Positions 1-54,186 of a stretch of 63,261 nucleotides of DNA are shown here, one piece after another. The first letter of the stretch is position 1. Every line of letters begins with the position of its first letter. The stretch comes from an uncultured Candidatus Saccharibacteria bacterium. GTDB lineage: Bacteria; Patescibacteriota; Minisyncoccia; Phycocordibacterales; Phycocordibacteraceae. The position numbers and the translations under genes were made by a program. The notes beneath the pieces were generated by a model. It was not told where the DNA came from and ran no database searches. It saw only the letters and a list, made by a program, of their open reading frames with translations. The stretch lies in assembly GCA_964550425.1 (NCBI GenBank), contig CAZJZB010000004.1:1-63261 (forward strand). Direction: 5' to 3'.

Positions 1-60
1 ACGCCGTTAGAAGTATTTAATCAGGGTGTTGCACTTCAATGTTGAATGTACCTTTCTGAT

Positions 61-98
61 GTTCTTATCAACAACCGGTCGGCAGAGATTAGAATATT
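61..98 (+). repeat. ATTCTTAT / CGGTCGG / ATAAGAAT palindromic element, copy A
   Basis: Left arm gttcttatc (61-69), core cggtcgg (76-82), right arm gattagaatatt (87-98). The arms are inverted repeats with 1 mismatch. The same architecture recurs at 704-743, 21258-21297 and 55491-55527. Confidence 0.55.
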
Positions 99-2642: not shown

Positions 2643-3164
2643 ATGGGTCTTTTTTTTACCTTTTCGTTCACCACTTTCGTGTTTGTTATAGTCGCGGCGG
2701 GCGCTGCGCCCGCCGCGCTTGCGCAATCCTGTCCGCCTGGATGCAGCGAATCATTTGCTGGCGGCTGTGTTTTGAGCGCGGATCTTATAAAAGGTGTTAT
2801 AACGGCCTGCCCGACACAGTCCGGGGTCTCTAATCTTCCACAAAAACAAACAGGTGTATCAAACACCAATAATTCTGCCTCTAAAACCACCCTCATCAAC
2901 CCGCTTGGTCCAAAAACGACCACCCTTTCCAAATTCCTCGAAAGTATTCTTGATATCATCATTCGTGTCGGTTCCGTTATCGTTATTCTCATGCTGGTTT
3001 TTGTCGGATTCAAATTCGTTACCGCGCGGGGCGAACCGGGAGAAATCTCCGAAGCGAAGCAGATGCTTCTCTGGACCGTCGTTGGCGCTTTGATACTTCT
3101 TGGCGCCAAGGTCATTGCGGCCGGCATTGAGGCGACCGTAAAGGCGCTCTCCACTGGCGGCTGA
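2643..3164 (+). CDS. T4SS-type (TrbC/VirB2-like) pilin family protein, paralog 1
   Basis: Signal peptide, a Cys-containing extracellular segment, then two TM helices separated by a charged loop (TARGEPGEISEAKQMLLW). It is the first of six tandem paralogs. Confidence 0.6.
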   Translation: MGLFFTFSFTTFVFVIVAAGAAPAALAQSCPPGCSESFAGGCVLSADLIKGVITACPTQSGVSNLPQKQTGVSNTNNSASKTTLINPLGPKTTTLSKFLESILDIIIRVGSVIVILMLVFVGFKFVTARGEPGEISEAKQMLLWTVVGALILLGAKVIAAGIEATVKALSTGG

Positions 3165-3165
3165 T

Positions 3166-3453
3166 ATGAATTTGTCCGGCGGCACGACGTTCAGGGAATG
3201 GGTGGGCGGCGGTACTGCCGGCATCATCGGCCTTCTCAATACCGTCATCGTGCCGACTATCTTCGCCTTCGCCTTTGCAGCCTTTATTTGGGGCGTCGTG
3301 AACTATTTCTTTCTCCATGGAGGCGATGAAGGGAAGCGCGCAGAAGGGCGGCAGTTCGTCCTCTGGGGTATTCTCGGAATGGTAGTGCTCTTCTCGGTGT
3401 GGGGATTCGTGCATATATTGTTATCCACGCTCGGCATCGCGCCTGCGAAATAA
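3166..3453 (+). CDS. pilin-like small 2-TM protein, paralog 2
   Basis: TM1, then the loop GGDEGKRAEGRQFVLWGILG, then TM2 ending FSVWGFV. The start is 2 nt after the previous stop. Confidence 0.6.
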   Translation: MNLSGGTTFREWVGGGTAGIIGLLNTVIVPTIFAFAFAAFIWGVVNYFFLHGGDEGKRAEGRQFVLWGILGMVVLFSVWGFVHILLSTLGIAPAK

Positions 3454-3454
3454 T

Positions 3455-3979
3455 ATGCCATACTCTCCGCATATGCGATCAATTGCCCATACTGCTCTCG
3501 TGTTCATCGCACTTCTCGCACCAGCTCCTACATACGCATTAAGTGACGCATCATATACACTCACAACACCGGGCATTAGCTCTCAATCATCGCAATTTTT
3601 CACGACCGGCGTCTTCGGTATGCCATTTGGCGGCGGATTCGGACTCGGCGGATATAGTAGCGGCTGCGCAAATTCCATCTATTGCATCGCGGGGAACGTT
3701 ATCTACATCATCAATAGCGTGTTGGTGCCGGTACTTTTCGCAATTTCTTTTATCGTATTTCTCTACGGCATCACCCGCGCGTATATTTTTTCCGCAGGCG
3801 ATCCGGAGAAGGTGAAGGAGGGGCATAAGATTATCCTCTGGGGCCTCATCGGGTTCGCCGTGATGGTATCCATATGGGGGCTGGTGAATGTCGTCTCCAA
3901 TACTTTCGGCCTTCAGGGCTCGTACGCGCCGTTTCTGCCGATGTCGCCTTCTCCCTTTTTAGGGCCGGCGCCTCGATAA
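3455..3979 (+). CDS. pilin-like protein, paralog 3 (longer N-terminal extracellular part)
   Basis: Signal peptide and a Gly-rich segment, followed by the shared module VLVPVLFAISFIVFLYG...GDPEKVKEGHKIILWGLIGFAVMVSIWGLVN. Confidence 0.6.
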   Translation: MPYSPHMRSIAHTALVFIALLAPAPTYALSDASYTLTTPGISSQSSQFFTTGVFGMPFGGGFGLGGYSSGCANSIYCIAGNVIYIINSVLVPVLFAISFIVFLYGITRAYIFSAGDPEKVKEGHKIILWGLIGFAVMVSIWGLVNVVSNTFGLQGSYAPFLPMSPSPFLGPAPR

Positions 3980-3991
3980 TTATAGAAACAC

Positions 3992-4279
3992 ATGGATTTG
4001 ACAAAACTTAAACAATATTCCGGAGAAATTATCGGTTTCATCAATTCTTTTCTCGTTCCGGCTTTGATGGCGATAGCGTTCATCACCTTCTTATATGGTG
4101 TCTATAAATATTTTATTCTTGGCGCTGCGAGCGATACCGAGCGTGCAGAAGGGCGGCAATTTGTCCTGTGGGGCATTATCGGTCTTGTTGTTATCTTCTC
4201 TGTCTGGGGGCTGGTGTTCCTTGTTAGCGGCACGCTCTATCTCGTGCCGAGAGGTGCGCCCTCGTATCCGCTATTGTGA
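3992..4279 (+). CDS. pilin-like small 2-TM protein, paralog 4
   Basis: Shared module LVPALMAIAFITFLYG...SDTERAEGRQFVLWGIIGLVVIFSVWGLV. Confidence 0.6.
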   Translation: MDLTKLKQYSGEIIGFINSFLVPALMAIAFITFLYGVYKYFILGAASDTERAEGRQFVLWGIIGLVVIFSVWGLVFLVSGTLYLVPRGAPSYPLL

Positions 4280-4367
4280 TTCTCCGATATCCCCACGGGG
4301 TGAGAGGGTATAGTTGACTCTGTTTCCAGGGACGTTACAATTACCCCATTATCCACTTATCAACACT

Positions 4368-4751
4368 ATGAAAAAAGCCCTCGCCCTCGTTTCAGGAACA
4401 TTTGCCGCACTCGCTCTGCCGCTCGTCTCTTTCGCACAAACAGTTAGTAATCTCTCGAGCGCCGGTACTTTGATTATCAATACCATTAATAATGTCCTCG
4501 TCCCTGTTCTTTTTGCCATTGCTTTCATCGTGTTCCTGTGGGGCGCGTTCCAGACCTTCATCGTTGGCGCCAACGACGAGGAAGTGAAGACACATGGTAA
4601 GAATCTCATGCTCTGGGGCCTCATCGGCTTTTTCGTCATGGTCTCTCTCTGGGGTCTCGTGAACATTCTTACCGGCACTGTTAGCTTTGGGACCAGTTCT
4701 GGACCATCGAGCGGCCTTCCAAAGGCAGGTGTCCAAGTAGGTGGTTTTTAA
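4368..4751 (+). CDS. pilin-like protein, paralog 5
   Basis: The ATG at 4368 gives the signal peptide MKKALALVSGTFAALALPLVSFA. Shared module VLVPVLFAIAFIVFLWG...NDEEVKTHGKNLMLWGLIGFFVMVSLWGLVN. Confidence 0.6.
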   Translation: MKKALALVSGTFAALALPLVSFAQTVSNLSSAGTLIINTINNVLVPVLFAIAFIVFLWGAFQTFIVGANDEEVKTHGKNLMLWGLIGFFVMVSLWGLVNILTGTVSFGTSSGPSSGLPKAGVQVGGF

Positions 4752-5021
4752 ATGCCCGTTCTCAACGAGTTTCTCCAGAAAGTCGTCGTGGAGGTCGTCA
4801 ATCCGATTATCCTGCTGCTCGTCGCAGGAGCGTTTATTGTGTTCTTGTGGGGCGTATTTGAGTTTATCCGACAGGCGGGAGATGAAGGGAAGCGCGAGGA
4901 GGGCAAGAGCGCCATTCTCTATGGCCTCATAGGCCTCGTCATCATCTTCGGTGCTTACGGCATTATCAATCTAGCTCTCGGGACCTTCGGTATCCCGACA
5001 ATTCAGAAAATTTCGAAGTGA
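4752..5021 (+). CDS. pilin-like small 2-TM protein, paralog 6
   Basis: Shared module NPIILLLVAGAFIVFLWG...GDEGKREEGKSAILYGLIGLVIIFGAYGIIN. The start directly follows the previous stop. Confidence 0.6.
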   Translation: MPVLNEFLQKVVVEVVNPIILLLVAGAFIVFLWGVFEFIRQAGDEGKREEGKSAILYGLIGLVIIFGAYGIINLALGTFGIPTIQKISK

Positions 5022-7943: not shown

Positions 7944-9409
7944 GATTCGGTAACGACGAAGGCGATTATTTCGTCGCCGTAGGCAGCATTCTCGCGCGCT
8001 TCGATCTCAATGCCGAAGTCACCCTCGGTTTTTATCTCTTTAGCATCCGCGCGCGCCTGCTGCAGGTTCGTGATGCTGCCGCGCGCGATTTCTGCCTCGC
8101 GGCGAAGTATTTTCATGCGATTTCCGACAGCGAGGATGCCGGAAACATAGCGCGCACCGAGGACTTGTTTCTTCCCGCTTGACGAGAAGGATTTCAGCAC
8201 CATCGCGCGCCCCAGTTCTTTCTCGGAGGCGATAACAGGAACACGTCCAACGAGGAGTCCGGCTATTTTCTCAGCAAGTTCGTAAATAATGGAGAAAGAA
8301 AGGATATCGATATGGTCCCGTTCTGCGAGCTCGCTGGCGATAGCATCAATTGATACGTTAAATGCGACGATAACTCCGCCGGCGGCGTACGCGGTCTTGA
8401 CATCGGTTTCCGAGACGCTGCCGACACCGGAAGAAACGATGCGGATGGAAGCCCGTTCATGGGTGATTTTCTTCAGTTCGTGCGCGATGGCATCCACCGA
8501 TCCTGCAACATCCGCCTTCACGATAAGGGGAAGTTCGGTGATGCCTTCGATTGCCGCAGTACGCTCCGGTGCTGTCATAATCGTTTTCGCATATTCATTC
8601 GCAAGAAGTTCCGCCTCCTTTTTATTCTTTGCGATGCTGAAAAGCGAACCCGCCGTGGGGAGTTTGCTGAACCCAGAAATTCGCACCGGTTCCGAAGGCC
8701 CTGCGGTCTCCACGCGCTTGCCGCGAAAATCCTCTATGAATCGTATTGGGGCGAACGCGTCGCCGGCGACAACAAATCCATCGAGCGTTAGTGTCCCGTC
8801 TTTTATGATGAGTGTCGCCGATGCGCCGCGCTTGGCATCCTGCGTCGATTCAAGTATGAAGCCGGTCGCGCTCGCGGCCGGATCGGCAGTGAACTCCGCG
8901 AGGTCAGCGGAGAGGAGGACCAGATCCAGAAGTTCCGGAATACCTTCGCCGGTTTTGGAGGAGACAAGCGCAAATGCGATATCGCCACCCATACCTTCTA
9001 TGAATATGCCGTGCTCAATAAGCGAATTTTTGGTATGGCCGATGTCAGCGTTGTTCTTGTCTATCTTGGTGATAGCCACGATATAGGGAATCTTCGCTTC
9101 GGTGATGGCTGCGAGCGCGTCGAGTGTCTGTGGCATCACACCCTCGTCCGCGGCGACAACGAGGATGGCGATATCTGCTGCTGCCGCGCCGCGAGTGCGC
9201 AGCGCCTTGAAGGCCTCGTGCCCGGGCGTGTCGAGGAAGGTGACCGGCCGGCCGTTGTGGAGCGCAATGTATGCGGCGACATGCTGTGTGATGCCTCCCG
9301 CCTCGCCCGCGACAATATTCGCCTTCCGGATGTAATCCAGAAGCGACGACTTACCATGGTCTATGTGGCCCATCACCGCGATGATGGGCGGTCTTGGGAC
9401 TCGCGCCAT
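7940..9409 (-). CDS. infB: translation initiation factor IF-2 (short form lacking the long N-terminal region)
   Basis: G-domain motifs [20 protein letters not shown] and TKID, followed by C-terminal IF-2 domains. Confidence 0.9.
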
Positions 9410-9484: not shown

Positions 9485-10663
9485 ATGTTTTGGAAGCGGA
9501 GAATATATCTTGATAATGCTGCAGGCGTGATGCCTAACCCGTCATCGCCGCATGAAGAGGGAAGGCGGGCTAAGAACATGTTGGAAGACGCGCGGACGGT
9601 TATCGCGCGCCTCGTCGAGGTACAACCGGACGATGTTATTTTCACGAGCGGCGCGACCGAGAGTAACGCGCTCGCCATTCTTGGGCATGTGCGAGCTCTT
9701 CGTGCGGCAGGAACGAAAGATATTCATATGTTATATCTGCCGAGCGCGCATGCATCTATCGTTGAAAATGCAAAAATGCTTTCTGCGGAAGGTGTAAAGG
9801 TAGATATTCTTCCAGTGAAGGATTATCGCGTTGATATAGAAGAGCTTAAGAAGATGCTTACGCCTGAGACAGTGCTCGTTTCCATGGAGGCGGTGTGCGG
9901 TGAGACGGGAGTCGTGTGGAACACACGCGAGGTCGCGGGGATGTTGAAAAAATTTAGCACGGGCGCACTGAAAAAAGGAAGCGCTCAGGCCGCTAGGCCG
10001 ATTCAACATCCTTTTTTCAGTGCGCCCGTGCTGCATGTTGACGCGAGCCAGGCACCTCTGACCGAGAAAATAACGCGCGCGCATTTCGCCGCGGATATGC
10101 TCACACTTGATGCGGCAAAGGTCTCCACTGCTCGCGGCATCGGCGCGTTTATTGCACACCGCACAATTCCAATCGTTCCTCTCTACGCGGGCGGCGGCCA
10201 AGAACGCGGATTACGTTCAGGAAGCGAGGCGCCGGAACTCGCGAGGAGTTTTGCGGCGGCGGTTGCCGCCGCTGCATCCGGGCGCGAGAAGTTCCGTGCT
10301 TCTGCCGAGCGTGATCGTGCGAACCTTATCAGCATGATTGTTGCCGGTATTCCGAATGTGCAAGTGCAAGAGGGCCGATTTCAGGCACCCCACATTCTCA
10401 ATCTTTCGTTTCCGAACCGTGACACCGATTATCTCGTCGCGCTCCTTGATGAAGCGGGTTTCGCCGTCTCGTCGCGGAGCGCCTGCGAGACGGATTCGCA
10501 GGTGGGTTCGCGGGCCGTTCTGGTCCTGACCGGCGACCCGGAGCGCACCCGTGCGACACTGCGTATATCCTGGGGCCCCAATGTTTCTCCGCATTCGTTT
10601 ACTCGCTTTGCCCGTGCGCTTCAAGAGACCGTTGCGTTTATTGACAGTGACGGCCGAAGGTAG
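9485..10663 (+). CDS. class V aminotransferase / cysteine desulfurase-like (NifS/IscS-like)
   Basis: Motifs IYLDNAAG and FTSGATESNALAI, with the overall class V layout. It carries the in-frame hairpin insertion at 9961-10027. Confidence 0.7.
   Translation: MFWKRRIYLDNAAGVMPNPSSPHEEGRRAKNMLEDARTVIARLVEVQPDDVIFTSGATESNALAILGHVRALRAAGTKDIHMLYLPSAHASIVENAKMLSAEGVKVDILPVKDYRVDIEELKKMLTPETVLVSMEAVCGETGVVWNTREVAGMLKKFSTGALKKGSAQAARPIQHPFFSAPVLHVDASQAPLTEKITRAHFAADMLTLDAAKVSTARGIGAFIAHRTIPIVPLYAGGGQERGLRSGSEAPELARSFAAAVAAAASGREKFRASAERDRANLISMIVAGIPNVQVQEGRFQAPHILNLSFPNRDTDYLVALLDEAGFAVSSRSACETDSQVGSRAVLVLTGDPERTRATLRISWGPNVSPHSFTRFARALQETVAFIDSDGRR
9961..10027 (+). repeat. in-frame hairpin element, copy 1 (19-bp perfect stem, conserved 29-nt loop)
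   Basis: gggcgcactgaaaaaagga (9961-9979) is the exact reverse complement of tccttttttcagtgcgccc (10009-10027). The loop agcgctcaggccgctaggccgattcaaca is identical to 28806-28834. Confidence 0.8.
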
Positions 10664-14509: not shown

Positions 14510-15676
14510 ATGACCATGCGTTCCCGCGTTCCATTATTTGCACTCCTGTTCGTAGCAGGTTCGCTTGTACTACCTCTTGTCGCGCATGCGGGCGGGATAC
14601 CGTTCCTCGGTCCTATTATTCCGCAGGGCACTTTCATTCCCGAAGGTACTATTGGTCCCACCACTATGTCTCAGGCAACCTGCCCACTCGGCTGGGGAGC
14701 ACTCATAAATGTCATCAACAACATCATCAGTTTTCTCATCACGATCGCTATCGTCTTTATCGCGCCCTTGATGATTGCCTATTCCGGATTCCTCTTCGTC
14801 GTGAATCCGGTAAACCCGAGCGGCAGAGAGGATGCGAAGAATATTCTTAGCCACACGATCGTCGGCATCGTCATCGCGCTTTCCGGATGGCTCATTGTTA
14901 GTGCTGTTATGGCAGTGCTCTACGATTCAAAAGCATTCGGCAAAAACTGGTCGGATCTCATCACTTCGGACGGCGTCTCCTGTCTCGAGCAAGCGGGCGC
15001 ACTTGGAGAAACGTCAAGTCAAGTCAGTCGCGCGCCGACTCTTACTGTCGCACCACAACCAAGCATACCGACTTCTGATATATTGCAAAAGCCACCATCC
15101 GAACCGACTACCGCGCTACCATTTAAGCCCACTATGACCGAGGGAGCAATTAAAAGCGCCGCTCTCGGTGCAAAGGCCTTTAAAGATTTTGCATGTGCCA
15201 CTGCCATGAAGGAAGGTATTCCAGGAGAGTGCAATCAAATTCTCGGAATCATTGCTATCGAATCAGAAGGAAACCAGAACATTATTAGTCCTAAGGGAGC
15301 CATTGGTGTTATGCAACTCATTCCAACCACAGCTGCTGGTGCGGGCGTCTCTGCTTGTAAAGGATCAACAAATATCAACCCATCGCCAGAGTGCGTTTCC
15401 GCACTAAGAGACCCAAAGACCAATATACAGGCCGGTGTAATGGAGTATGCAAAGCTTTATAAAAAGTTCAACAATAATACGACGAATGCCACGGCAGCAT
15501 ATAATGCCGGAAGCGGGAGCGGTTTGACTCAAGATGGAAAGAAAAATGCATTTGCGCCAAGTACCGATTGTCCAGGATTAGTAGCGTGGCAGTGCCCAAT
15601 AAATCCAGGCGGACTTATCGAAACGCAGAGATATGTCCCGAACGTGGCGGCAGCCGCAAAGTTTCTTTCAAGCTAA
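14510..15676 (+). CDS. fusion protein: pilin-like 2-TM N-terminal domain plus C-terminal lytic transglycosylase (SLT, VirB1-like) domain
   Basis: Signal peptide and two TM helices with the loop NPVNPSGREDAKNIL, as in the pilin paralogs. A P/S/T linker follows, then SLT motifs IIAIESEGN, GVMQLIP and AYNAGSG. Confidence 0.7.
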   Translation: MTMRSRVPLFALLFVAGSLVLPLVAHAGGIPFLGPIIPQGTFIPEGTIGPTTMSQATCPLGWGALINVINNIISFLITIAIVFIAPLMIAYSGFLFVVNPVNPSGREDAKNILSHTIVGIVIALSGWLIVSAVMAVLYDSKAFGKNWSDLITSDGVSCLEQAGALGETSSQVSRAPTLTVAPQPSIPTSDILQKPPSEPTTALPFKPTMTEGAIKSAALGAKAFKDFACATAMKEGIPGECNQILGIIAIESEGNQNIISPKGAIGVMQLIPTTAAGAGVSACKGSTNINPSPECVSALRDPKTNIQAGVMEYAKLYKKFNNNTTNATAAYNAGSGSGLTQDGKKNAFAPSTDCPGLVAWQCPINPGGLIETQRYVPNVAAAAKFLSS

Positions 15677-15702: not shown

Positions 15703-16575
15703 TTAGGACATCGGATGTCCTAACTTGCGCAGCCAGGCTTTTTGGCGTCTGGCATACTGCCAAAGTTTCGCCGAGAGGGCCGGTAGGAGTACTTCGCTGC
15801 GCTCAGTACCTCCGGCGCGTAGATACTCTCCGATTATGCGATACTCGAGCCCAAATTCGTTGAGCCGTATATCGCCGACCATTTCTCGAATAGTGCGTAC
15901 TTCATCAATAAGTCCGCGCGCAAACGCGCTTTCCAGCCGCGTGTCTATTCTCGCGCGCAACTCTTCTTTTGGCGGGTCAATCACTATCCATTCAACAAGG
16001 TATCCACAACTTGTGCCTATAGGCACATCTTTTGGATACCTTGATGGGACGGTGCCGAGTGAGGCGATTATTTCCAAGGCGCGGATGAGTCGGCGGCGGT
16101 TTTTAGGATCCAATTCTGCCCCTCGGCGCGCGTCCGCCAAGCGGACACGCGCATAGAGTTCGTTCGTGGAAAGCGTTTCAAGTTCTTCGCGAAGCAGGGG
16201 ATTTGCATCAATACCCATCGGCAGGCCGTGAAGAAGTGCATGGAAATAGAAATGCGTTCCTCCGACAAGGATGGGAAGTTTTCCGCGATCCGAAATATCT
16301 TCAATAAGGCGTGTCGCATCCGCCACGAAGTCACCTGCAGAATACGCCTCATGCGGGTCGCGGATATCGATAAGATGATGGGGAACGCCACACATCTCCT
16401 CGGCGGTTATTTTTTCTGTGCCAATATCAAGTTCGTGGTATACTTGTCGCGAATCAACCGAAATAATCTCGCCACCACGCACAAGTGCTTCTTCAATTGC
16501 CCGCGAGGATTTGCCCGAAGCAGTTGGGCCTACTACGCATACAATTTGCCTTGCCATTGCGCACGATGGTATCAT
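15703..16575 (-). CDS. miaA: tRNA dimethylallyltransferase
   Basis: Motifs VVGPTASGKSS, ISVDSRQVYHELDIGTEKIT, VPHHLIDI and PILVGGTHFY. The start may instead be the second Met, at 16554 (codon 16552-16554). Confidence 0.85.
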   Translation of the reverse strand: MIPSCAMARQIVCVVGPTASGKSSRAIEEALVRGGEIISVDSRQVYHELDIGTEKITAEEMCGVPHHLIDIRDPHEAYSAGDFVADATRLIEDISDRGKLPILVGGTHFYFHALLHGLPMGIDANPLLREELETLSTNELYARVRLADARRGAELDPKNRRRLIRALEIIASLGTVPSRYPKDVPIGTSCGYLVEWIVIDPPKEELRARIDTRLESAFARGLIDEVRTIREMVGDIRLNEFGLEYRIIGEYLRAGGTERSEVLLPALSAKLWQYARRQKAWLRKLGHPMS

Positions 16576-21192: not shown

Positions 21193-21257
21193 GCACGATA
21201 TTATACACCTGCTGCTTTGTTTTTGTATTTAGCGTTTCGAAATTTGTCGATACTCAC

Positions 21258-21297
21258 ATATTCTTATTATTGCCGACCGGATGTAGATAAGAATGTT
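21258..21297 (-). repeat. ATTCTTAT / CGGTCGG / ATAAGAAT palindromic element, copy C (core inverted)
   Basis: Arms atattcttat (21258-21267) and ataagaatgtt (21287-21297). The core ccgaccg (21273-21279) is the reverse complement of cggtcgg. Confidence 0.6.
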
Positions 21298-27788: not shown

Positions 27789-28623
27789 TGAGCGCCTGCC
27801 TGTCGGCAGGCAGGGCCTTTCCGAACGGCGCCGGTTACGGCGCCGCCGAGTCATCATAGTGCTCACTATTCTCATCTTCGTCTGTCTCGGAGCGGTCGCG
27901 CATGGTCTCGGGCAGAGTGCCGTGCGCATCTCACGCATAGATGTTTTTGGAGCCGATGCTACGCTCGCCGCGTATGCAACGAGCGCGATGCAGGGATGGT
28001 ATGGCGGCATCATTCCGCGCGACTCAACATTTTTCCTGCCTGCTGCGCGCATTCGCGCTGGCATCCTTGCTGCGCATCCGGACATAGCCGCCGTTTCAAT
28101 ATTTCGCAACGGACTAACCGGTCTTTCAATCAGAGTGGACAATCGTGTTCCCATCGCGCGTTGGTGCGGTACGCCCTCGGATGCGTCATTCGGCATTAGT
28201 ACCAGTACGCCGCTCGGCAAGGACTGCTATTTTTTTGATGCGAGCGGCGTTATCTACGCGACGACAAGTACCGCGCAGCCGCTAAATTCTTTCACTGTGT
28301 ATCAATCTTTCGCGAATGAGGATGGTCTTATCGGTTCAACGCTTCCGAATATCGGGACATTTTCCGCAGCTTTTGACTTCGCACGACAGCTCGAGACATT
28401 TGGCTCGTCGGTTTCTTCAATCGTTTTTCGCAACGATGAAGTTGATGAGTACCTTCAGAGCGGCACACGTGTTACGTACGTGCTCGGAAATGAACAGAAC
28501 GCTTCCACTGCGCTTGTGTCTGCGCGCGCGAATTTAAATCTCGCGAACGGTTCTATCGAATACATTGATCTGCGCTTTGACGGCAAGGTGTATGTGAAGA
28601 AGAGAAGTGATAAGGTGCAATAA
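27766..28623 (+). CDS. FtsQ/DivIB-like cell division protein (TM helix plus POTRA-like domain)
   Basis: Arg-rich cytoplasmic N-terminus, TM helix VIIVLTILIFVCLGAVA, then a POTRA-like segment VRISRIDVFGA. The GTG start at 27766 is tentative; alternatives are TTG at 27772 or the GTG inside the TM helix. Confidence 0.5.
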   Translation: MSLEPRGSERLPVGRQGLSERRRLRRRRVIIVLTILIFVCLGAVAHGLGQSAVRISRIDVFGADATLAAYATSAMQGWYGGIIPRDSTFFLPAARIRAGILAAHPDIAAVSIFRNGLTGLSIRVDNRVPIARWCGTPSDASFGISTSTPLGKDCYFFDASGVIYATTSTAQPLNSFTVYQSFANEDGLIGSTLPNIGTFSAAFDFARQLETFGSSVSSIVFRNDEVDEYLQSGTRVTYVLGNEQNASTALVSARANLNLANGSIEYIDLRFDGKVYVKKRSDKVQ

Positions 28624-29711
28624 TGTCATTCTGGCAGAAACTCAATAAGCCATTTATTGTGATGGCGCCAATGAAAGACGTGACCGATGTCGCTTTCCGA
28701 CAACTCGTCGCGAAGAGTGGCGCCCCCGACGTATTCTGGACCGAATTCGTTTCGGCTGACGGTCTCTACTACACGCAAGAAATCGCCGGCAAGTCAGAAA
28801 AATCAAGCGCTCAGGCCGCTAGGCCGATTCAACATGATTTTTCTGACTCACCGGCTCATAAAAGCAACAATCCGCTCGTGCGCGATCTGGCGTTCATGGA
28901 GGAACAGCGGCCAATAGTCGCGCAAATTTTTTCAAGCAAGCCGGAGATGATTGCGTATGCGACGAAACTTGTCGCAGGTCTCGGGTTTGACGGCGTTGAT
29001 ATCAACATGGGCTGTCCGGACCGAACGGTTGAGAAGCAGGGCGCTGGCGCCGCGATGATTAAAAATCCGAAGCTCGCTCAAGAGATCATTCGCACCGCCA
29101 AACAAGCGGCTCTCGAAGCGGCAATACCAAATCCGTCCTATAGGACGGATTTGGTACTGTCACGATTTCCGATTCCTGTGTCGGTAAAAACACGCATTGG
29201 CTACAACACTGAATCGCTCGACGAGTGGCTCACGGCGCTTCTGGAAGCAGGCCCCGCCGCCATCACGCTCCATCTGCGCACGCGCAAGGACATGTCGCTC
29301 GTGTCGGCGGATTGGGAACAAATGAAAAAGGCCGTTGAGATTCGCAATCGTGTGAATCCGGACGTGCTCCTCATCGGCAATGGCGACGTGCAGGACCTCG
29401 CTGATGCGCGTGCGAAGGCGATCGAATCAGGATGCGACGGCGTAATGCTTGGTCGCGCGATGTTCGGGAATCCATGGGTTTTCGCTGGCCGAAAAAGCGA
29501 AGACACGCCGCTCGCTGAGAAGCTCGCGGCGCTTATTGAGCTCGCGCATTCCTTTGAGAAAATCTCGCCGCCCAAGAACTTCTCAATACTGAAAAAGCAC
29601 ATCAAGGCATTCGTCACCGGCTTCAATGGTGCCGCCGAACTCCGCGCGCTCCTGATGCAGGCCGAGAATGCATTCGAGCTAGAGCGCATTCTGCGCGAGA
29701 ATCCAGTATAA
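28623..29711 (+). CDS. tRNA-dihydrouridine synthase
   Basis: Motifs MAPMKDVTDVAFRQL, GVDINMGCP and the Dus TIM-barrel pattern. It carries the in-frame hairpin insertion at 28793-28847. Confidence 0.8.
   Translation: MSFWQKLNKPFIVMAPMKDVTDVAFRQLVAKSGAPDVFWTEFVSADGLYYTQEIAGKSEKSSAQAARPIQHDFSDSPAHKSNNPLVRDLAFMEEQRPIVAQIFSSKPEMIAYATKLVAGLGFDGVDINMGCPDRTVEKQGAGAAMIKNPKLAQEIIRTAKQAALEAAIPNPSYRTDLVLSRFPIPVSVKTRIGYNTESLDEWLTALLEAGPAAITLHLRTRKDMSLVSADWEQMKKAVEIRNRVNPDVLLIGNGDVQDLADARAKAIESGCDGVMLGRAMFGNPWVFAGRKSEDTPLAEKLAALIELAHSFEKISPPKNFSILKKHIKAFVTGFNGAAELRALLMQAENAFELERILRENPV
28793..28847 (+). repeat. in-frame hairpin element, copy 2 (13-bp stem, same 29-nt loop)
   Basis: Stem gtcagaaaaatca (28793-28805) / tgatttttctgac (28835-28847). 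The loop at 28806-28834 is identical to 9980-10008. Confidence 0.8.
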
Positions 29712-33574: not shown

Positions 33575-35164
33575 ATGTCCCGCAGAATATTTGCGACGAA
33601 CTTTCTTGCGTTCGCACTGCTTGTCGGAGGCGTAGCGTACGCCGCGGAGGCCGATATCATATTCCCGGTCGCAGAACTTGGCGGTTGCGAATCGAAGGAA
33701 GCATGCAAAACATATTGCGATCTCAAAGCGAACATAAACCAATGTCTCTCTTTCGCTGAAGCGCACGATCTGATTGGCAAGGAGGACGCAGCGATAGCTC
33801 GGAAAATCGGCAGTACCGAAGGCCCGGGGGGCTGCATGGGGGTGGAGTGCCGAGCGTACTGTGAAGTCGAGGAACATTTTGAAGAATGTATCGCCTTTGC
33901 CGAGGAACATGGGATCATAAAAGCGGAGGATGCTAAATATGCGCGGATCCTCAAAGAGAAGTCAGGACCAGGCGGTTGTCGGGGTATTGAATGCAAAGCG
34001 TACTGCGAGAACGATGCACACTTTGACAAATGTCTCGCGTTTGCGGAGGAAAATGGGTTCATCTCAAAAGAGGAGGCGGTCATGGCAAAGAAGATAGGAA
34101 CCGAAGCGGGTCCTGGCGGCTGTAAGAGAGAGGAATGTCGAACGTACTGCGAGGATGTCTCGCACGCGGAGGCGTGTCTTGCTTTTGCAGAAGAGCATGG
34201 ACTCATGTCGCAAGAAGATCTTGTCAAAGCAAAACACTTTATCGGCAAAACCGGTCCGGGAGGTTGCAGAGGCGTTGAGTGCAAAACCTATTGCGAAGAT
34301 TCCACTCATGGCGATGAGTGCCTCGCGTTCGCGGAAGAGAACGGCCTCATTTCGAAAGAGGATGGCGAGCGCGCACGGAAATTCATGAATATCGAGGGTC
34401 CCGGCGGTTGCCACGGAGAAAAATGCCGCACATACTGTGACAATCCAGACAATCGCGAAGTGTGCTTTGCTTTTGCCAAAGAGCACGATCTTATTCCACA
34501 AGAACAGCTCGATCAGTCCGAGAAACTTTTCAATAGTACCGGCCCGGGCGGTTGCAAAGGATTTGAGTGCAAAACGTATTGCGAGGATACATCACATCAA
34601 AGTGAATGTCAGAAATTTGCCGAAGAACATGGCTTCATGCAGCGTTCTGACGGGCCTCTTCCTCCGGAGGGGATGATGCAAGAATTTGAGGGCGAGCAGG
34701 GTTCCCGCGGCACCGAGGAGGGAATAGAGGGCCTTCCCCGCGGGGTGATGCACGGAAGACAAGGAGGCGTACCGGACGGAGCGATGTCTCTTCCTCCAAA
34801 TACCGGGGACTTTCGGAATCAATATCAAGACGAGTATCAGAAGCAATACGGAGAGCAATACCAAAACCAGTACCAGCAGGAATATCAGAAGCAGTATGAG
34901 TCCGAGTATCAGAAATACCAGCAAGATCCAAATGCATACCCGTCACCTTCATATTCTCCGTCTTCAGGAGGTACTGGAACCTACGAAGAAAAGAGTCAGT
35001 CCTCACCGGACAGTTCATACGCGCCACCGCCTTCTGGAAACACCTATTCTGACAGTAGTTCCTATGTATCGTCGCCTTCTCCACTAACCTCCACCAGCTT
35101 TGATCGCGGGCTGTTGATTGGCTCCGCATATGCGGCGGTCTTCAATTTACTCTTTAGTAAATGA
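33575..35164 (+). CDS. secreted repeat protein: seven 48-aa Cys4 repeats plus a Q/Y-rich low-complexity tail and a C-terminal hydrophobic segment
   Basis: Signal peptide, then 7 copies of GPGGC-x4-C-x3-C-x8-C-xFAEEHG-(I/L). Next comes a (E)YQ(K/N)QY-rich stretch, an S/P-rich stretch, and a terminal hydrophobic helix. Confidence 0.7.
   Translation: MSRRIFATNFLAFALLVGGVAYAAEADIIFPVAELGGCESKEACKTYCDLKANINQCLSFAEAHDLIGKEDAAIARKIGSTEGPGGCMGVECRAYCEVEEHFEECIAFAEEHGIIKAEDAKYARILKEKSGPGGCRGIECKAYCENDAHFDKCLAFAEENGFISKEEAVMAKKIGTEAGPGGCKREECRTYCEDVSHAEACLAFAEEHGLMSQEDLVKAKHFIGKTGPGGCRGVECKTYCEDSTHGDECLAFAEENGLISKEDGERARKFMNIEGPGGCHGEKCRTYCDNPDNREVCFAFAKEHDLIPQEQLDQSEKLFNSTGPGGCKGFECKTYCEDTSHQSECQKFAEEHGFMQRSDGPLPPEGMMQEFEGEQGSRGTEEGIEGLPRGVMHGRQGGVPDGAMSLPPNTGDFRNQYQDEYQKQYGEQYQNQYQQEYQKQYESEYQKYQQDPNAYPSPSYSPSSGGTGTYEEKSQSSPDSSYAPPPSGNTYSDSSSYVSSPSPLTSTSFDRGLLIGSAYAAVFNLLFSK
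33677..34670 (+). repeat. 7 tandem 144-nt coding repeats (48-aa Cys4 module)
   Basis: The repeats are seen in translation and have diverged at the nucleotide level. Boundaries are approximate. Confidence 0.7.
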
Positions 35165-37153: not shown

Positions 37154-37750
37154 ATGGACTCACAACAGAAACGTAATTTCCAGAAAATTGTCTCATGGGT
37201 TTTGGGCGGCGGTCTGACGATTGCAGCGATCGGAGGTCTTATATGGTTCGTTGCGACACGACCTCCCATTCCGGAATCTGAAATCATTTCGAAAAAAGGC
37301 ATCCACTGGCATTCAGAACTTACTATCTATATGAAAGGAGTAAAACAAGAAATCCCGGCAAATATCGGCATTGGCGCTGTCCATCAGCCGATACATACGC
37401 ATGACGCGATAGGAACGATACATCTTGAGTTCCAGGGACTGGTTCGCAAACAGGATATTACTCTTGGTCAATTCTTCAAAAATTGGGGCAAGGATATGCA
37501 ATCATTCGGATCGAATATGCGACCGAGCGATGAGCGAGGAAGTACTGAGGCCAGCAGGTCGAATATGCGACCGAGCGATGAGCGAGGAAGTACTGAGGCC
37601 AGCAGGTCGAATATGCGACCGAGCGATGAGCGAGGAAGTACTGAGGCCAGCAGGCCGAATGTGAGAATGACCGTCAACGGCGAAGAAAACATTGAGTACG
37701 AGAACTACGTCATGCACGACAAGGACATCATCGAGTTGCGCTTCGAATAA
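37154..37750 (+). CDS. membrane-anchored protein with a His-rich motif and a 3x16-aa tandem repeat insert
   Basis: TM anchor, the motif HWHSELTIY...HQPIHTHDAIGTIHLE, then SNMRPSDERGSTEASR three times. Confidence 0.55.
   Translation: MDSQQKRNFQKIVSWVLGGGLTIAAIGGLIWFVATRPPIPESEIISKKGIHWHSELTIYMKGVKQEIPANIGIGAVHQPIHTHDAIGTIHLEFQGLVRKQDITLGQFFKNWGKDMQSFGSNMRPSDERGSTEASRSNMRPSDERGSTEASRSNMRPSDERGSTEASRPNVRMTVNGEENIEYENYVMHDKDIIELRFE
37511..37654 (+). repeat. perfect 48-bp x 3 tandem repeat (in frame)
   Basis: tcgaatatgcgaccgagcgatgagcgaggaagtactgaggccagcagg is repeated three times without mismatch, followed by a degenerate partial unit. Confidence 0.9.
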
Positions 37751-45186: not shown

Positions 45187-45804
45187 TTAGACCGCGCTTT
45201 TTTTGCGAGCGAGATTTATGAGGATAGGGGAGAAAGAGAGTACGATGATAACCAGCGAGAGTGGGAGTATGTATTTTTCACTATTCGGAATCACCGAACC
45301 GAGAAAGTATCCGAGCGCTATCATACCCATGCCCCAGAGGAATCCGCCGAGTATGTTATAGGCGAGAAATACTCGATATTTCATAGAGCCGGCGCCAGCG
45401 AGAATCGGCGCGATAGTACGCACAATAGGGACAAATCGCGCGAGTATAATCGCGCGTCCGCCATACTTCTGGTAGAAAAGCTCGGTGCGTTTCAGATATT
45501 CCTGTTTGAAAAAGCGTGAATCCTCGCGTAAGGAAAGGCGGTTGCCCGCCTTGGCGCCGAACCAATATCCTACCGAGTCGCCGAGTATCGCCGCGACTAC
45601 TACCACTAGTATAAGAGAACTCGGAGCAAGAAATCCTCCGGCAGATAGGAGACCGGCTGCGAAGAGGAGAGAATCACCAGGAAAGAATATGCCGATAAGA
45701 AGTCCGCTCTCGGCGAAAACAATCAATGCGATGCCAAGATAACTCCCCGTCTTCACTATGGCGAGCGGGTCGAGATGCACAGTTGCGAGTAGAAAGTCGA
45801 GCAT
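45187..45804 (-). CDS. DedA family membrane protein
   Basis: FAESGLLIGIFFPGDSLLFAAGLL and RFVPIVRTIAPILAGAG are typical of DedA. I chose the start at MLDFLL (45804). Confidence 0.75.
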   Translation of the reverse strand: MLDFLLATVHLDPLAIVKTGSYLGIALIVFAESGLLIGIFFPGDSLLFAAGLLSAGGFLAPSSLILVVVVAAILGDSVGYWFGAKAGNRLSLREDSRFFKQEYLKRTELFYQKYGGRAIILARFVPIVRTIAPILAGAGSMKYRVFLAYNILGGFLWGMGMIALGYFLGSVIPNSEKYILPLSLVIIVLSFSPILINLARKKSAV

Positions 45805-45827
45805 TCCGATGCAGTATACTAGAACGA

Positions 45828-54121: not shown

Positions 54122-54186
54122 GACGAAATTGGTATTTTGAATGCGGTATGTTCAATTATCCTATACACTCCCCTCACACGCGCATC

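What the first reader, a model, noticed from the sequence alone, without database searches (positions are those of the whole stretch)
9961..10027. Hairpin element read through in frame inside a cysteine desulfurase-like gene: conserved 29-nt loop, covarying stem (copy 1 of 2)
A perfect 19-bp inverted repeat (gggcgcactgaaaaaagga / tccttttttcagtgcgccc) encloses the loop agcgctcaggccgctaggccgattcaaca. The same 29-nt loop recurs at 28806-28834 inside the unrelated dus gene. There it is enclosed by a different stem that is again fully self-complementary (gtcagaaaaatca / tgatttttctgac). Both copies are translated, so two unrelated enzymes share the peptide SAQAARPIQH. Between the copies, the left-arm change GG to TC is matched by the right-arm change CC to GA, so pairing is preserved while sequence drifts. 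A conserved loop with compensating stem changes is the opposite of the usual MITE pattern of conserved terminal repeats and a variable interior. It points to selection on a DNA or RNA hairpin. The closest known analogy is the Rickettsia palindromic elements that insert in frame into ORFs, but I do not know of this having been described for a CPR-like genome.
Basis: partly seen in the sequence, partly recalled or inferred. Interest (0 to 1): 0.8.

Follow-up and report, generated by a model that had tools for sequence, protein, structure and literature searches.

The report
Mobile hairpin repeat translated inside genes
A 71-base hairpin repeat, found so far only in a group of ultra-small groundwater bacteria, sits in spacers between genes and in frame inside housekeeping enzymes, where it is read as a floppy surface loop. 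Its loop sequence and the pairing of one DNA strand are kept far better than the surrounding genes.

Summary
The exact 29-nt loop lies at 9980-10008 and 28806-28834, enclosed by a 24-bp and a 21-bp stem. Both copies are in frame in a cysteine-desulfurase-like and a Dus ORF.

Scans of public genomes and metagenomes, plus orthologue look-ups, gave about 30 distinct copies at about 17 loci, all in Patescibacteria (Paceibacteria/Kaiserbacteria-like) assemblies. Sites include intergenic positions 0-10 nt after stop codons, a LigD linker, and C-terminal fusions that use a TAG from the loop. Most orthologues of both enzymes lack the insert, and some carry decayed copies, nested insertions or short palindromic footprints.

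- All 21 stem pairs covary.
- In orthologues chosen without regard to the loop, the loop is 92% identical, against 78-88% at codon positions 1+2 and 37-49% at position 3 of the host genes.
- Mismatches are mostly G·T wobble on the strand antisense to the two ORFs (36 vs 10).
- All copies on one contig point the same way.
- Loop variants are shared between loci of one genome.

Best reading: a non-autonomous mobile hairpin element, comparable to Rickettsia palindromic elements or REPINs, recognised as a single-stranded hairpin by an unidentified trans factor and tolerated in disordered protein loops. It matches no Rfam family, and I found no report of it in these bacteria.

The parts
9956..9979 (.). 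Copy 1, left arm of the hairpin. The core family arm is 9959-9979; here pairing extends three more bases, to 9956.
   Evidence: 24 perfect base pairs with 10009-10032. Aligned as columns 1-24 of A1/A4. Contains the conserved A6 tract.
9980..10008 (+). Copy 1, 29-nt conserved loop AGCGCTCAGGCCGCTAGGCCGATTCAACA, with an inner GGCC/GGCC 4-bp hairpin. It is translated as SAQAARPIQH.
   Evidence: Exact match. Covariance model R1 scores 95.8 bits, E=9e-23. The loop is 86-100% identical in orthologues chosen without regard to the loop.
10009..10032 (.). Copy 1, right arm. Its outer part encodes the A-P-V-L that leads into the conserved LHVD strand.
9485..10663 (+). Host gene 1: class-V aminotransferase / cysteine-desulfurase-like ORF. 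The element-coded residues are about 158-182.
   Evidence: Pfam PF00266. The alignment to PDB IscS2 4r5f breaks at query residues 155-178. The AlphaFold model shows coil at 160-181 with pLDDT<50 at 165-177. About 90 of 120 orthologues lack the insert.
28785..28805 (.). Copy 2, left arm (GCCGGCAAGTCAGAAAAATCA).
   Evidence: 21 pairs with 28835-28855. There are two A.C mismatches on the + strand, and the stem is fully paired with G.U on the - strand.
28806..28834 (+). Copy 2, identical 29-nt loop, translated as SAQAARPIQH.
   Evidence: Exact match. R1 scores 92.3 bits, E=7e-22.
28835..28855 (.). Copy 2, right arm (TGATTTTTCTGACTCACCGGC).
28623..29711 (+). Host gene 2: tRNA-dihydrouridine synthase ORF. 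The element-coded residues are about 55-78.
   Evidence: Pfam PF01207. Most orthologues read ...YHTREIKKMKDEENPL... without the insert. AlphaFold pLDDT is below 50 at residues 59-79.

Best explanation
The two hairpins are copies of a lineage-specific family of about 71-nt non-autonomous mobile hairpin repeats in Paceibacteria/Kaiserbacteria-like Patescibacteria. Each copy has 21-bp arms, with a variable outer part, a conserved A5-6/T5-6 tract and two hypervariable paired positions, around a 29-nt conserved loop. Flanks are usually TC on the 5' side and T(C/T) on the 3' side.

Shown: the element occupies many unrelated sites. Most are intergenic, just after stop codons. Some lie inside genes, where only reading frames without a stop survive and the element is translated as a roughly 24-residue passenger peptide in a disordered surface loop or linker. 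Copies are lost by internal deletion, which leaves short palindromic footprints.

Inferred: the element is copied or maintained by a trans-acting protein that reads the loop and the proximal A/T tract presented on a folded single strand. That strand is the one complementary to the two ORFs here. This would explain why pairing, with G.T/G.U wobble, is kept on that strand only. It would also explain why the loop is the best-conserved sequence, why all copies on a contig share one orientation, and why loop variants are shared by different loci of the same genome. The enzyme is unidentified. A HUH/Y1-type (RAYT/IS200-like) or other ssDNA-acting recombinase is the model. Template switching between the arms probably helps to keep them complementary.
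For: Mobility and repeat nature:
- The exact loop occurs in 7 places in 4 GTDB species genomes, and 16 metagenome contigs also carry it, all Patescibacteria-like apart from one chance hit.
- There are about 17 non-orthologous loci with diverse neighbours: cysteine desulfurase (CD), Dus, LigD linker, class I aaRS C-terminus, miaA C-terminus, after xerC/D-like, murA-like, rpsB and clpB, and between topA and xth.

Presence/absence and decay:
- Most of 120 orthologues of each enzyme lack the insert. Others carry variant, nested-insertion, partly deleted or footprint forms.

Translation:
- ORFs are intact in dozens of orthologues, including ones with in-frame indels inside the element.
- All three stop-free frames are used, and the stop-containing frame provides a C-terminus.
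- The inserts are modelled as low-confidence coil and are absent from the solved IscS structure.

Structure:
- 21/21 stem pairs show double changes, and 0/500 shuffles reach the observed values.
- In orthologous copies the arm differences are compensated 2/2, 4/4 and 5/5.

Strand specificity:
- The minus-strand arms fold better in 20, equally in 7 and worse in 2 of 29 loci scored, one of them the chance hit L004 (p=4e-4).
- There are 36 minus-wobble cells, 10 plus-wobble cells and 23 other cells. This holds whatever the orientation of the neighbouring genes.

Orientation:
- Copies on one contig all point the same way: 2/2, 2/2 and 4/4.
- GC skew is positive on the element's + strand in 13 of 14 independent loci with a non-zero skew (the CD locus is about zero).

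Loop constraint and genome-level variants:
- The loop is 240/261 identical, against 0.37-0.49 identity at third codon positions.
- The T24G variant is shared by the CD and Dus copies of one contig. The SAPAARPIQL and SARAARPIQL loop haplotypes occur in both genes.
Against: - No transposase, HUH, RT or integrase gene is present in the 63-kb window. None of the neighbours listed in the fetched loci was called as a transposase, HUH or RT protein; one xerC/D-like tyrosine recombinase abuts a copy (L003b/L017). No whole genome could be scanned.
- No clean empty site was found, so insertion boundaries and any target-site duplication are unresolved.
- A 71+2-nt insertion would not preserve the reading frame.
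- In-situ conservation of the loop and compensated arm changes in clearly orthologous copies are not what a purely selfish, decaying insertion predicts. They fit a host-level function equally well.
- The better-pairing strand appears to be the leading-strand template, the opposite of the IS608 paradigm. The GC skews are weak.
- Copy numbers seen are low (2 in 63 kb, 4 in 31 kb).
Confidence: 0.6

Rival explanations
1. The hairpin is a host-beneficial cis-acting signal, not merely a selfish repeat. It would be a strand-specific ssDNA or RNA hairpin whose 29-nt loop is bound by a host protein or RNA, for example a replication or repair-related ssDNA signal, or a 3'-end or antisense RNA element. 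It would be kept at each locus by purifying selection, and the loop would co-evolve with its partner in each genome.
For: - The loop is more conserved (92%) than codon positions 1+2 of two housekeeping enzymes, and far more than position 3.
- All arm differences between orthologous copies are compensated, even where both arms are coding.
- The wobble bias is on one strand.
- Loop haplotypes are shared between loci of a genome.
- Orientation is uniform along contigs.
- Intergenic copies sit 0-10 nt after stop codons.
Against: - Closest relatives do without the element at both genes.
- Copies are seen decaying (L031), partly deleted (P0142, P0203) or reduced to footprints (L025).
- The sites are unrelated genes with no common theme.
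- Other, unrelated hairpins occupy the same sites in other genomes.
- No complementary partner of 10 nt or more exists in the window.
- There is no U-tract after the stem, so it is not a canonical terminator.
- It matches no Rfam family.
Confidence: 0.25
2. The element is an intron-like or bypassed sequence. The hairpin would be removed from the mRNA (cleavage and ligation at the stem) or hopped over by the ribosome, so the enzymes would be made without the extra residues.
For: A long, stable stem (-54 kcal/mol) inside a coding region would be an obstacle to translation and a natural RNase III-type substrate. Mitochondrial byp elements and T4 gene 60 are precedents (own knowledge).
Against: - The reading frame is open through every in-gene copy, including variants with in-frame indels within the element (P0011, P0015, P0089, P0144).
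- Only stop-free frames are found within genes, and the frame with TAG terminates proteins.
- Deletion derivatives differ by multiples of three (57 and 60 nt).
- Pairing is preserved on the antisense strand, not on the mRNA strand.
- There is no internal stop and no take-off/landing codon pair.
Confidence: 0.05
3. There is no mobility. The palindromes would be generated locally by replication template switching and only look alike.
For: Template switching can create and maintain perfect hairpins and compensatory changes without selection (PMC8794818, PMC8604942). Different hairpins recur at the same sites in this lineage.
Against: A 29-nt loop, together with the flanking A/T tract, that is the same or nearly so at about 17 unrelated loci cannot arise independently. 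Template switching gives Watson-Crick perfection, not a one-strand wobble bias.
Confidence: 0.03

Closest known systems
Rickettsia palindromic elements (RPE; Ogata et al. 2000, as summarised in PMC10969869)
   Same: Both are short palindromic repeats without coding capacity of their own. Both are scattered in a reduced genome and are frequently inserted in frame into unrelated housekeeping genes. Both are translated as extra peptide segments that are compatible with the fold, and both also occur between genes.
   Different: RPEs are about 100-150 bp, occur in Alphaproteobacteria, and are conserved along their whole length. This element is 71 nt and occurs in Patescibacteria. Only the loop and an A/T tract are conserved, while the arms covary. 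Pairing is kept on one strand. Sequence homology to RPE families was not tested.
REP/REPIN elements with RAYT transposases (PMC3116915, PMC8049555, PMC5581495, PMC3479197)
   Same: Both are hairpins of roughly 70-100 nt present in several copies, placed just after genes. REPINs are recognised as single-stranded DNA with tolerated G.T mismatches, have genome-specific 'master' sequences, persist for a long time, and have no transposase inside the element.
   Different: REPINs are extragenic. Their conserved part is the stem (REP with 5' GTAG) and the loop is variable, the reverse of the pattern here. No RAYT or other HUH gene has been linked to this element. REPINs are not known from Patescibacteria.
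Bacterial MITEs (Correia/CREE, ERIC, BOX, QMITE; PMC10969869, PMC3184786)
   Same: Both are small and non-autonomous, have inverted-repeat ends, are sometimes intragenic with in-frame fusions, and can supply stop codons or C-termini.
   Different: MITE terminal inverted repeats are conserved in sequence because a transposase binds them, and MITEs have defined target-site duplications and a parent IS. Here the arms drift with compensation, the interior is conserved, and no parent IS or clear duplication was found.
Integron attC sites and IS200/IS605 end hairpins (ssDNA-recognised structures; PMC6006769)
   Same: Recognition of a folded single strand, strand specificity, structure conserved more than stem sequence (attC), and an orientation bias relative to replication.
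   Different: There is no integrase or cassette context and no R/L boxes. attC loops are variable. IS200/IS605 hairpins flank a transposase gene and sit on the lagging-strand template, whereas this element's better-pairing strand appears to be the other one.
Coding palindromes in Nematomorpha mitochondrial genes (PMC6649704)
   Same: Long, perfect inverted repeats embedded in protein-coding genes, with both arms translated.
   Different: Those are locus-specific palindromes without a shared loop sequence, and they are organellar. Here a common loop marks one dispersed family.

Membership tests
Rickettsia palindromic elements (RPE) | Multi-copy palindromic repeat inserted in frame in unrelated ORFs and translated | tested here: met
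   In-frame copies occur in CD, Dus and LigD, with C-terminal fusions in a class I aaRS and miaA. ORFs are intact in many orthologues.
Rickettsia palindromic elements (RPE) | Sequence homology to RPE-1..10, with a size of about 100-150 bp, in Rickettsia | not tested
   No RPE sequences were compared. The size (71 nt) and the host phylum differ (PMC10969869 for RPE size).
MITE | Terminal inverted repeats conserved in sequence across copies | tested here: not met
   All 21 arm pairs vary with double changes. Only the A-tract columns 17-21 are at least 90% conserved.
MITE | Target-site duplication of fixed length | tested here: inconclusive
   By my reading of alignment A4, the flanks are TC on the 5' side in 21/27 copies and T on the 3' side in about 23/27. 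No pristine empty site was found to define the junctions.
MITE | Parent IS with the same ends encoding a transposase | tested here: inconclusive
   None is present in the window (Pfam), and none was called among the neighbours listed in the fetched loci. Whole genomes were not available.
REP/REPIN-RAYT | Strictly extragenic location | tested here: not met
   Copies lie inside three ORF families.
REP/REPIN-RAYT | Conserved REP stem sequence with 5' GTAG and a variable loop | tested here: not met
   The pattern is the opposite: the loop is conserved, the arms are variable, and there is no GTAG.
REP/REPIN-RAYT | Single-copy RAYT (Y1 HUH) gene in the same genome | not testable with these tools
   Only 63 kb of this genome and fragments of at most 21 kb of its relatives could be read. 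None was found there.
REP/REPIN-RAYT | Genome-specific master sequence shared by dispersed copies | tested here: met
   The window's two copies are identical. T24G is shared by the CD and Dus copies on one contig. The same loop haplotypes occur in both genes.
Integron attC | R''/L''-L'/R' boxes (RYYYAAC...GTTRRRY), cassette context, and IntI | tested here: not met
   The arms end in GCCGGC-like sequence. Neighbours are housekeeping genes, and there is no integrase next to the window copies.
Intrinsic (Rho-independent) terminator | GC-rich stem immediately followed by a U tract | tested here: not met
   The T5-6 run lies inside the 3' arm, next to the loop. The stem is followed by TC/TT and then unrelated sequence.
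Any described RNA family (Rfam 15) | Score at or above the gathering threshold | tested here: not met
   Only tRNAs reach the threshold in the window. The hairpin gives sub-threshold generic matches to miRNA-precursor models.
Translational bypass / byp elements | Coding gap with an internal stop and matching take-off and landing codons, with no need for the frame to be kept | tested here: not met
   The frame is open through all in-gene copies, and in-frame indels are tolerated.

The most novel reading that the evidence does not exclude
The hairpins are the cis sites of an undescribed, long-lived partnership in Patescibacteria between a trans-acting single-strand-specific protein and a small population of loop-defined hairpins. 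Each genome's loops would co-evolve with that factor, pairing would be selected on one strand in situ, and the sites would be allowed to reside inside essential genes. This would be a REPIN/RAYT-like or attC-like system with inverted architecture (the loop as the specificity determinant), possibly with a host function tied to replication direction.
Probability: 0.25. Interest if true: 0.75.

Novelty: new variant of a known kind. Interest (0 to 1): 0.62.

Why it matters
Patescibacteria have tiny, tightly packed genomes and are thought to carry few mobile elements. This work shows a dispersed repeat family that colonises spacers of a few bases and even essential enzymes, adding about 24 disordered residues to them. 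Several other hairpin families do the same at the same sites.

The conservation pattern differs from that of MITEs and REPs. The loop is fixed, the arms are free but paired, wobble pairs lie on one strand only, orientation is uniform, and loop variants are genome-wide. This predicts a specific, still unknown protein that reads a folded single strand, and that prediction can be tested directly by phylogenetic profiling and biochemistry.

Practically, such inserts inflate protein length variation, can confuse gene calling and metagenome assembly (one likely chimeric join at a copy was seen), and could serve as lineage markers.

Tried and rejected
1. Viral contigs scan with the loop core gave 0 hits.
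2. Rfam at the gathering and E-value thresholds gave only tRNAs and generic hairpin noise.
3. Covariance model R1 run over the whole window with filters off found no third copy. Other hits are unrelated hairpins.
4. A 31-residue profile of the element-coded peptide, run against 1.84 billion representatives to list further host proteins, gave only 2 irrelevant repetitive hits.
The census of host proteins therefore rests on DNA hits.
6. I looked for a target-site duplication using 'empty' orthologues. The apparent empty sites (L025, P0194) still hold both stem bases and are deletion footprints. The intergenic spacers are too diverged to compare.
7. I tested the idea that the outer arms are inverted copies of the target. 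It fits the window's desulfurase copy, whose right arm encodes the native-looking APVL. It is rejected as a general rule because GCCGGCAG-type arms recur at unrelated loci.
8. A search for a complementary partner of the loop (k>=10) in the window found none.
9. The minus-strand motif ATGTTGAAT resembles the XerD arm of dif, and one copy abuts a xerC/D-like gene. No dif-like site or further support was found, so I left this as an untested lead.
10. A CRISPR-repeat reading is rejected, because no locus has tandem copies.
11. Mutational strand bias as the cause of the wobble asymmetry is unlikely. The bias is independent of neighbour-gene orientation, and it is opposite to what C-to-T deamination on the G-rich strand would give (reasoning).
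Full report
**1. The observation**

The window contains the 29-nt sequence AGCGCTCAGGCCGCTAGGCCGATTCAACA exactly twice, at 9980-10008 and 28806-28834. There are no other matches with up to three mismatches, and none is expected by chance.
- Copy 1 is closed by 24 perfect base pairs (9956-9979 with 10009-10032).
- Copy 2 is closed by 21 pairs (28785-28805 with 28835-28855) with two A.C mismatches.
- Folding energies are -54 and -38 kcal/mol, with z-scores of -10.2 and -7.7.

Both copies lie in frame in long ORFs. The first is a class-V aminotransferase / cysteine-desulfurase-like gene (CD, 9485-10663). The second is a tRNA-dihydrouridine synthase gene (Dus, 28623-29711). Both copies are read as SAQAARPIQH.

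**2. It is a dispersed repeat family in Patescibacteria**

A scan of one genome per GTDB species, with the loop core and the tetraloop left free, gave eight loci. Seven are hairpin copies in four Patescibacteria MAGs (Minisyncoccia JBAQWN01, JBBTWA01, Nomurabacteria CALRBA01, and a 'Saccharibacteria'-labelled MAG). One Planctomyces hit has no hairpin and is a chance match. A metagenome scan gave 16 more contigs, many from Hainich groundwater. Viral contigs gave none.

Look-ups of orthologues added further copies. These include a related sub-family, F2, with the loop CGCTCCAGGCCGCTCGGCCAAGTCTTA. In all there are about 30 distinct copies at about 17 non-orthologous loci. Identical copies in independent assemblies exclude an assembly artefact.

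The covariance model R1, run with filters off, finds only the two copies in the window. A related 31-kb contig holds four copies: two F1 and two F2.

**3. Anatomy**

An ungapped alignment of 27 copies shows the following layout:
- a 5' flank that is usually TC;
- a 21-nt arm made of a variable outer 12-13 nt (often GCCGGCAG-like), a conserved A5-6 tract, two hypervariable positions, and then A;
- the 29-nt loop, with an invariant inner GGCC-GCTA-GGCC hairpin;
- the complementary arm;
- a 3' flank of T(C/T).

All 21 stem pairs show changes on both sides. On the strand complementary to the ORFs, 94% of cells pair, against 67% in shuffles and about 50% for slid partners. None of 500 shuffles reaches any of the five measures. 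Rfam has no matching family.

**4. Where the copies sit**

Most copies are intergenic and start 0-10 nt after a stop codon:
- after a xerC/D-like integrase and before exonuclease III;
- after a murA-like gene, after rpsB and after clpB;
- between topA and xth;
- between a PD-(D/E)XK nuclease gene and a DsbA-like gene;
- upstream of gatA.

Three host families carry the element in frame inside the ORF. CD and Dus use frame 0 (SAQAARPIQH). A LigD-type ligase carries it in the linker between its phosphoesterase and ligase domains, in frame +2 (ALRPLGRFN).

In two genes on the opposite strand, a class I aminoacyl-tRNA synthetase and miaA, the ORF runs into the element and ends at the TAG within the loop (...VESA*). 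So every stop-free frame is used inside genes, and a frame with a stop makes a C-terminus. This is what selection on translated insertions predicts.

**5. Presence, absence and decay**

Among the 120 best homologues of each enzyme, all Paceibacteria/Kaiserbacteria-like by the names their sources give, most lack the insert. Dus reads ...YHTREIKKMKDEENPL..., and CD reads ...K-x4-6-APVLHVD.

About 12 Dus and 30 CD orthologues carry the insert. They show:
- loop-peptide variants (SARAARPIQH, SAPAARPIQL, SAQAARPMQH);
- strongly decayed forms (SAEATAPIPY, and L031);
- secondary in-frame insertions within the element (P0011, P0015, P0089, P0144);
- partial deletions (P0142, P0203).

Two apparent 'empty' alleles are footprints that still hold the stem bases. 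One is L025, with GCACGGGTGCGCCCGTGC, 57 nt shorter (shown at DNA level). The other is P0194, inferred from its protein to be 60 nt shorter. The closest CD relative (81% identity) has no insert.

The same protein loops carry other, unrelated hairpin-coded inserts in other genomes. Examples are EVRL..KSDF and FSLARGTAATREE in CD, and VRDKESETPG..GVSNGTSEI in Dus. The miaA 3' end and the clpB-rpmG spacer hold different hairpins in different genomes. Hairpin colonisation of tolerant sites is therefore a general habit of this lineage.

**6. The protein side**

A sequence alignment to the solved IscS2 structure (4r5f) splits exactly around query residues 155-178.

AlphaFold models built with orthologue alignments are confident overall (mean pLDDT 83-84).
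- In CD, the insert is modelled as coil between helix 147-159 and strand 182-186, with pLDDT<50 at 165-177.
- In Dus, the insert (59-79) has pLDDT<50.

These are predictions. They fit a passenger peptide in a surface loop.

**7. Conservation in place**

L006, L008 and L001 were found by their exact loop, so they cannot be used to measure loop conservation. I therefore used only orthologues fetched through protein similarity.

| Sequence class | Identity to the window copy |
|---|---|
| Loop | 86-100% (240/261 overall) |
| Host-gene codon positions 1+2 | 78-88% |
| Host-gene codon position 3 | 37-49% |
| Arms | 55-90% |

Within the CD clade that shares the outer arm GCACGGGC, all arm differences from the window copy are compensated: 2/2 for L028, 4/4 for L006 and 5/5 for L038. 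L030 adds further compensated pairs plus wobble positions. Several of these changes are synonymous on one arm and are matched on the other arm.

**8. One strand matters**

I joined the arms with a neutral GAAA loop and folded both strands. The strand complementary to the loop orientation given above, which is antisense to CD and Dus, is more stable in 20 of the 29 loci scored (one of them the chance hit L004), equal in 7 (perfect stems) and less stable in 2 (Wilcoxon p=4e-4).

By cell counts, 36 non-Watson-Crick cells are G.U/G.T on the minus strand (A.C on the plus strand), 10 are the reverse, and 23 are neither. The window's copy 2 is an example.

The bias holds whether neighbouring genes lie on the plus or the minus strand, so it follows the element and not transcription. 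Deamination on the G-rich strand would give the opposite bias. Template switching between arms can create and maintain perfect hairpins without selection (PMC8794818, PMC8604942) and probably contributes, but it cannot produce a one-strand wobble preference.

I infer that pairing is selected on the minus strand as ssDNA or RNA. The mRNA hairpin is then not the selected form.

**9. Orientation and genome-level loop variants**

All copies on a contig share one orientation: 2/2 in the window, 2/2 in L003, and 4/4 in SRR26786822_4732. In the last contig the neighbours include genes on both strands.

GC skew of the surrounding DNA is positive on the element's plus strand in 13 of the 14 independent loci with a non-zero skew (the CD locus is about zero), although the skews are small. 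This hints at a link with replication direction.

Loop variants travel with genomes rather than with loci. The window's two copies are identical. The CD and Dus copies of one contig share T24G. The complex haplotypes A8C+G21A+A29T (SAPAARPIQL) and A8G+G21A+A29T (SARAARPIQL) are found in both genes, although I could not show that those cases come from the same genome.

This points to recognition by a trans factor that co-evolves with the loop, to continuing replacement from a genomic master, or to conversion between copies.

**10. Interpretation**

*Best supported (0.6).* This is a non-autonomous mobile hairpin repeat whose loop and proximal A/T tract are read on a folded single strand by an unidentified protein. 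It lands mostly in the few bases between genes and survives within genes only in tolerant loops, where it is translated.

*Weaknesses.*
- No transposase-like gene is present in the window. In the neighbouring genes listed for the fetched loci the only recombinase seen is the xerC/D-like integrase next to one copy.
- There is no resolved target duplication.
- The in-place conservation would also fit a host-level function (rival, 0.25).
- By the IS608 model (PMC6006769), the better-pairing strand is not the one expected on the lagging-strand template.

*Rejected or unlikely.* Removal from the mRNA or translational bypass (0.05) is contradicted by frame conservation and by the strand result. Purely local palindrome formation (0.03) is contradicted by the shared loop.

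**11. Comparison with known systems and novelty**

In behaviour the element is closest to the Rickettsia palindromic elements, which are in-frame passengers in housekeeping genes (PMC10969869). In population features it is closest to REPINs, which are genome-specific masters recognised as ssDNA hairpins (PMC3116915, PMC8049555, PMC3479197).

It fails defining features of MITEs (conserved terminal repeats), REPs (extragenic location; conserved stem with GTAG), attC sites, terminators and every Rfam family.

Full-text searches found no report of such elements in Patescibacteria. That shows only that nothing turned up in that library. I file the element as a new variant of a known kind. Its distinctive architecture, a conserved loop with free but paired arms and pairing kept on one strand, makes a concrete prediction about an unknown partner protein.

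Noticed in passing
window 29123-29158 and 54101-54136: A second, unrelated palindrome family (AATACCAAATCCGTCCTA|TAGGACGGATTTGGTA). One copy is translated in frame inside the same dus ORF (..AIPNPSYRTDLVL..). That segment is absent from the orthologue in L001 and is modelled as low-confidence coil. The other copy overlaps the end of the tgt ORF (52892-54121), and its central CCTATAGG supplies the TAG stop.
   Followed up: partly
window 15703-15723; L032 about 8620-8645; L021; L028: A 21-nt palindrome, TTAGGACATCGGATGTCCTAA, forms the last codons and the stop of miaA (..LGHPMS*) in the window and in L032. At the same junction L021 carries the 29-nt-loop element (..VESA*), and L028 carries no hairpin. 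Different hairpins therefore replace each other at gene ends.
   Followed up: partly
relatives' CD and Dus proteins (P0139, P0146, P0148, P0152, P0135, P0118 and others): The same protein loops carry other inserts in other genomes: EVRLxxQxxKSDF, FSLARGTAATREE, FSAPSG..QPVAxKI and HVGRTTSYMG in CD, and VRDKESETPG..GVSNGTSEI in Dus. Their two halves look like reverse-complement translations of each other, so they are probably further coding hairpin families. The DNA was not fetched.
   Followed up: no
L038 6943-7021 and L034 6131-6209 (one contig, SRR26786822_4732): A sub-family, F2, of the element has a diverged loop (CGCTCCAGGCCGCTCGGCCAAGTCTTA) and different arms. One copy lies 5 nt after the clpB stop and the other between topA and xth. 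Both have the same orientation as the two F1 copies on that contig, and both pair better on the minus strand.
   Followed up: partly
L015 1584-1654 versus L014 435-505: L015 has the right arm and right flank of L014, but a left arm and left flank from another locus, and the two arms do not pair. This is either recombination between two copies or a metagenome mis-join at the shared 45-nt core.
   Followed up: no
window 63-98, 708-743, 55492-55527 (+) and 21255-21293 (-): A repeated motif of about 36 nt, TTCTTATnnnnnACGGTCGGnAnnAATAAGAATATT, itself partly palindromic. The first two copies lie in the short gaps beside ORFs 108-698 and 743-1336. It could be a promoter or operator-like site, or another small repeat.
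   Followed up: no
window 37511-37660, 33818-34638 and 34807-34914: Three sets of tandem repeats lie inside ORFs without Pfam matches. One is 3.1 copies of a 48-nt unit (99% identical) in ORF 37154-37750. Another is six diverged 144-nt units, and the third is a 12-nt periodicity (QYQ-like); both of these are in ORF 33575-35164.
   Followed up: no
window 2643-5000, 14510-15676 and 45726-48602: Several paralogous T4SS-pilin-like small genes (sharing a conserved C-terminal LWG..G motif region), an SLT transglycosylase fused to a pilin-like domain, and a TraG/VirD4-like ATPase. This secretion or DNA-transfer gene set is syntenic in the relatives.
   Followed up: no
L031 just after clpB (about 14690-14830): The clpB-rpmG spacer is about 27 nt in most relatives. 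In L031 it holds a different long hairpin (a stem of about 27 bp, cgaaacggaaaaggttatttttgag / ctcaaaaataaccttttccgtttcg), and L032 holds yet another.
   Followed up: no
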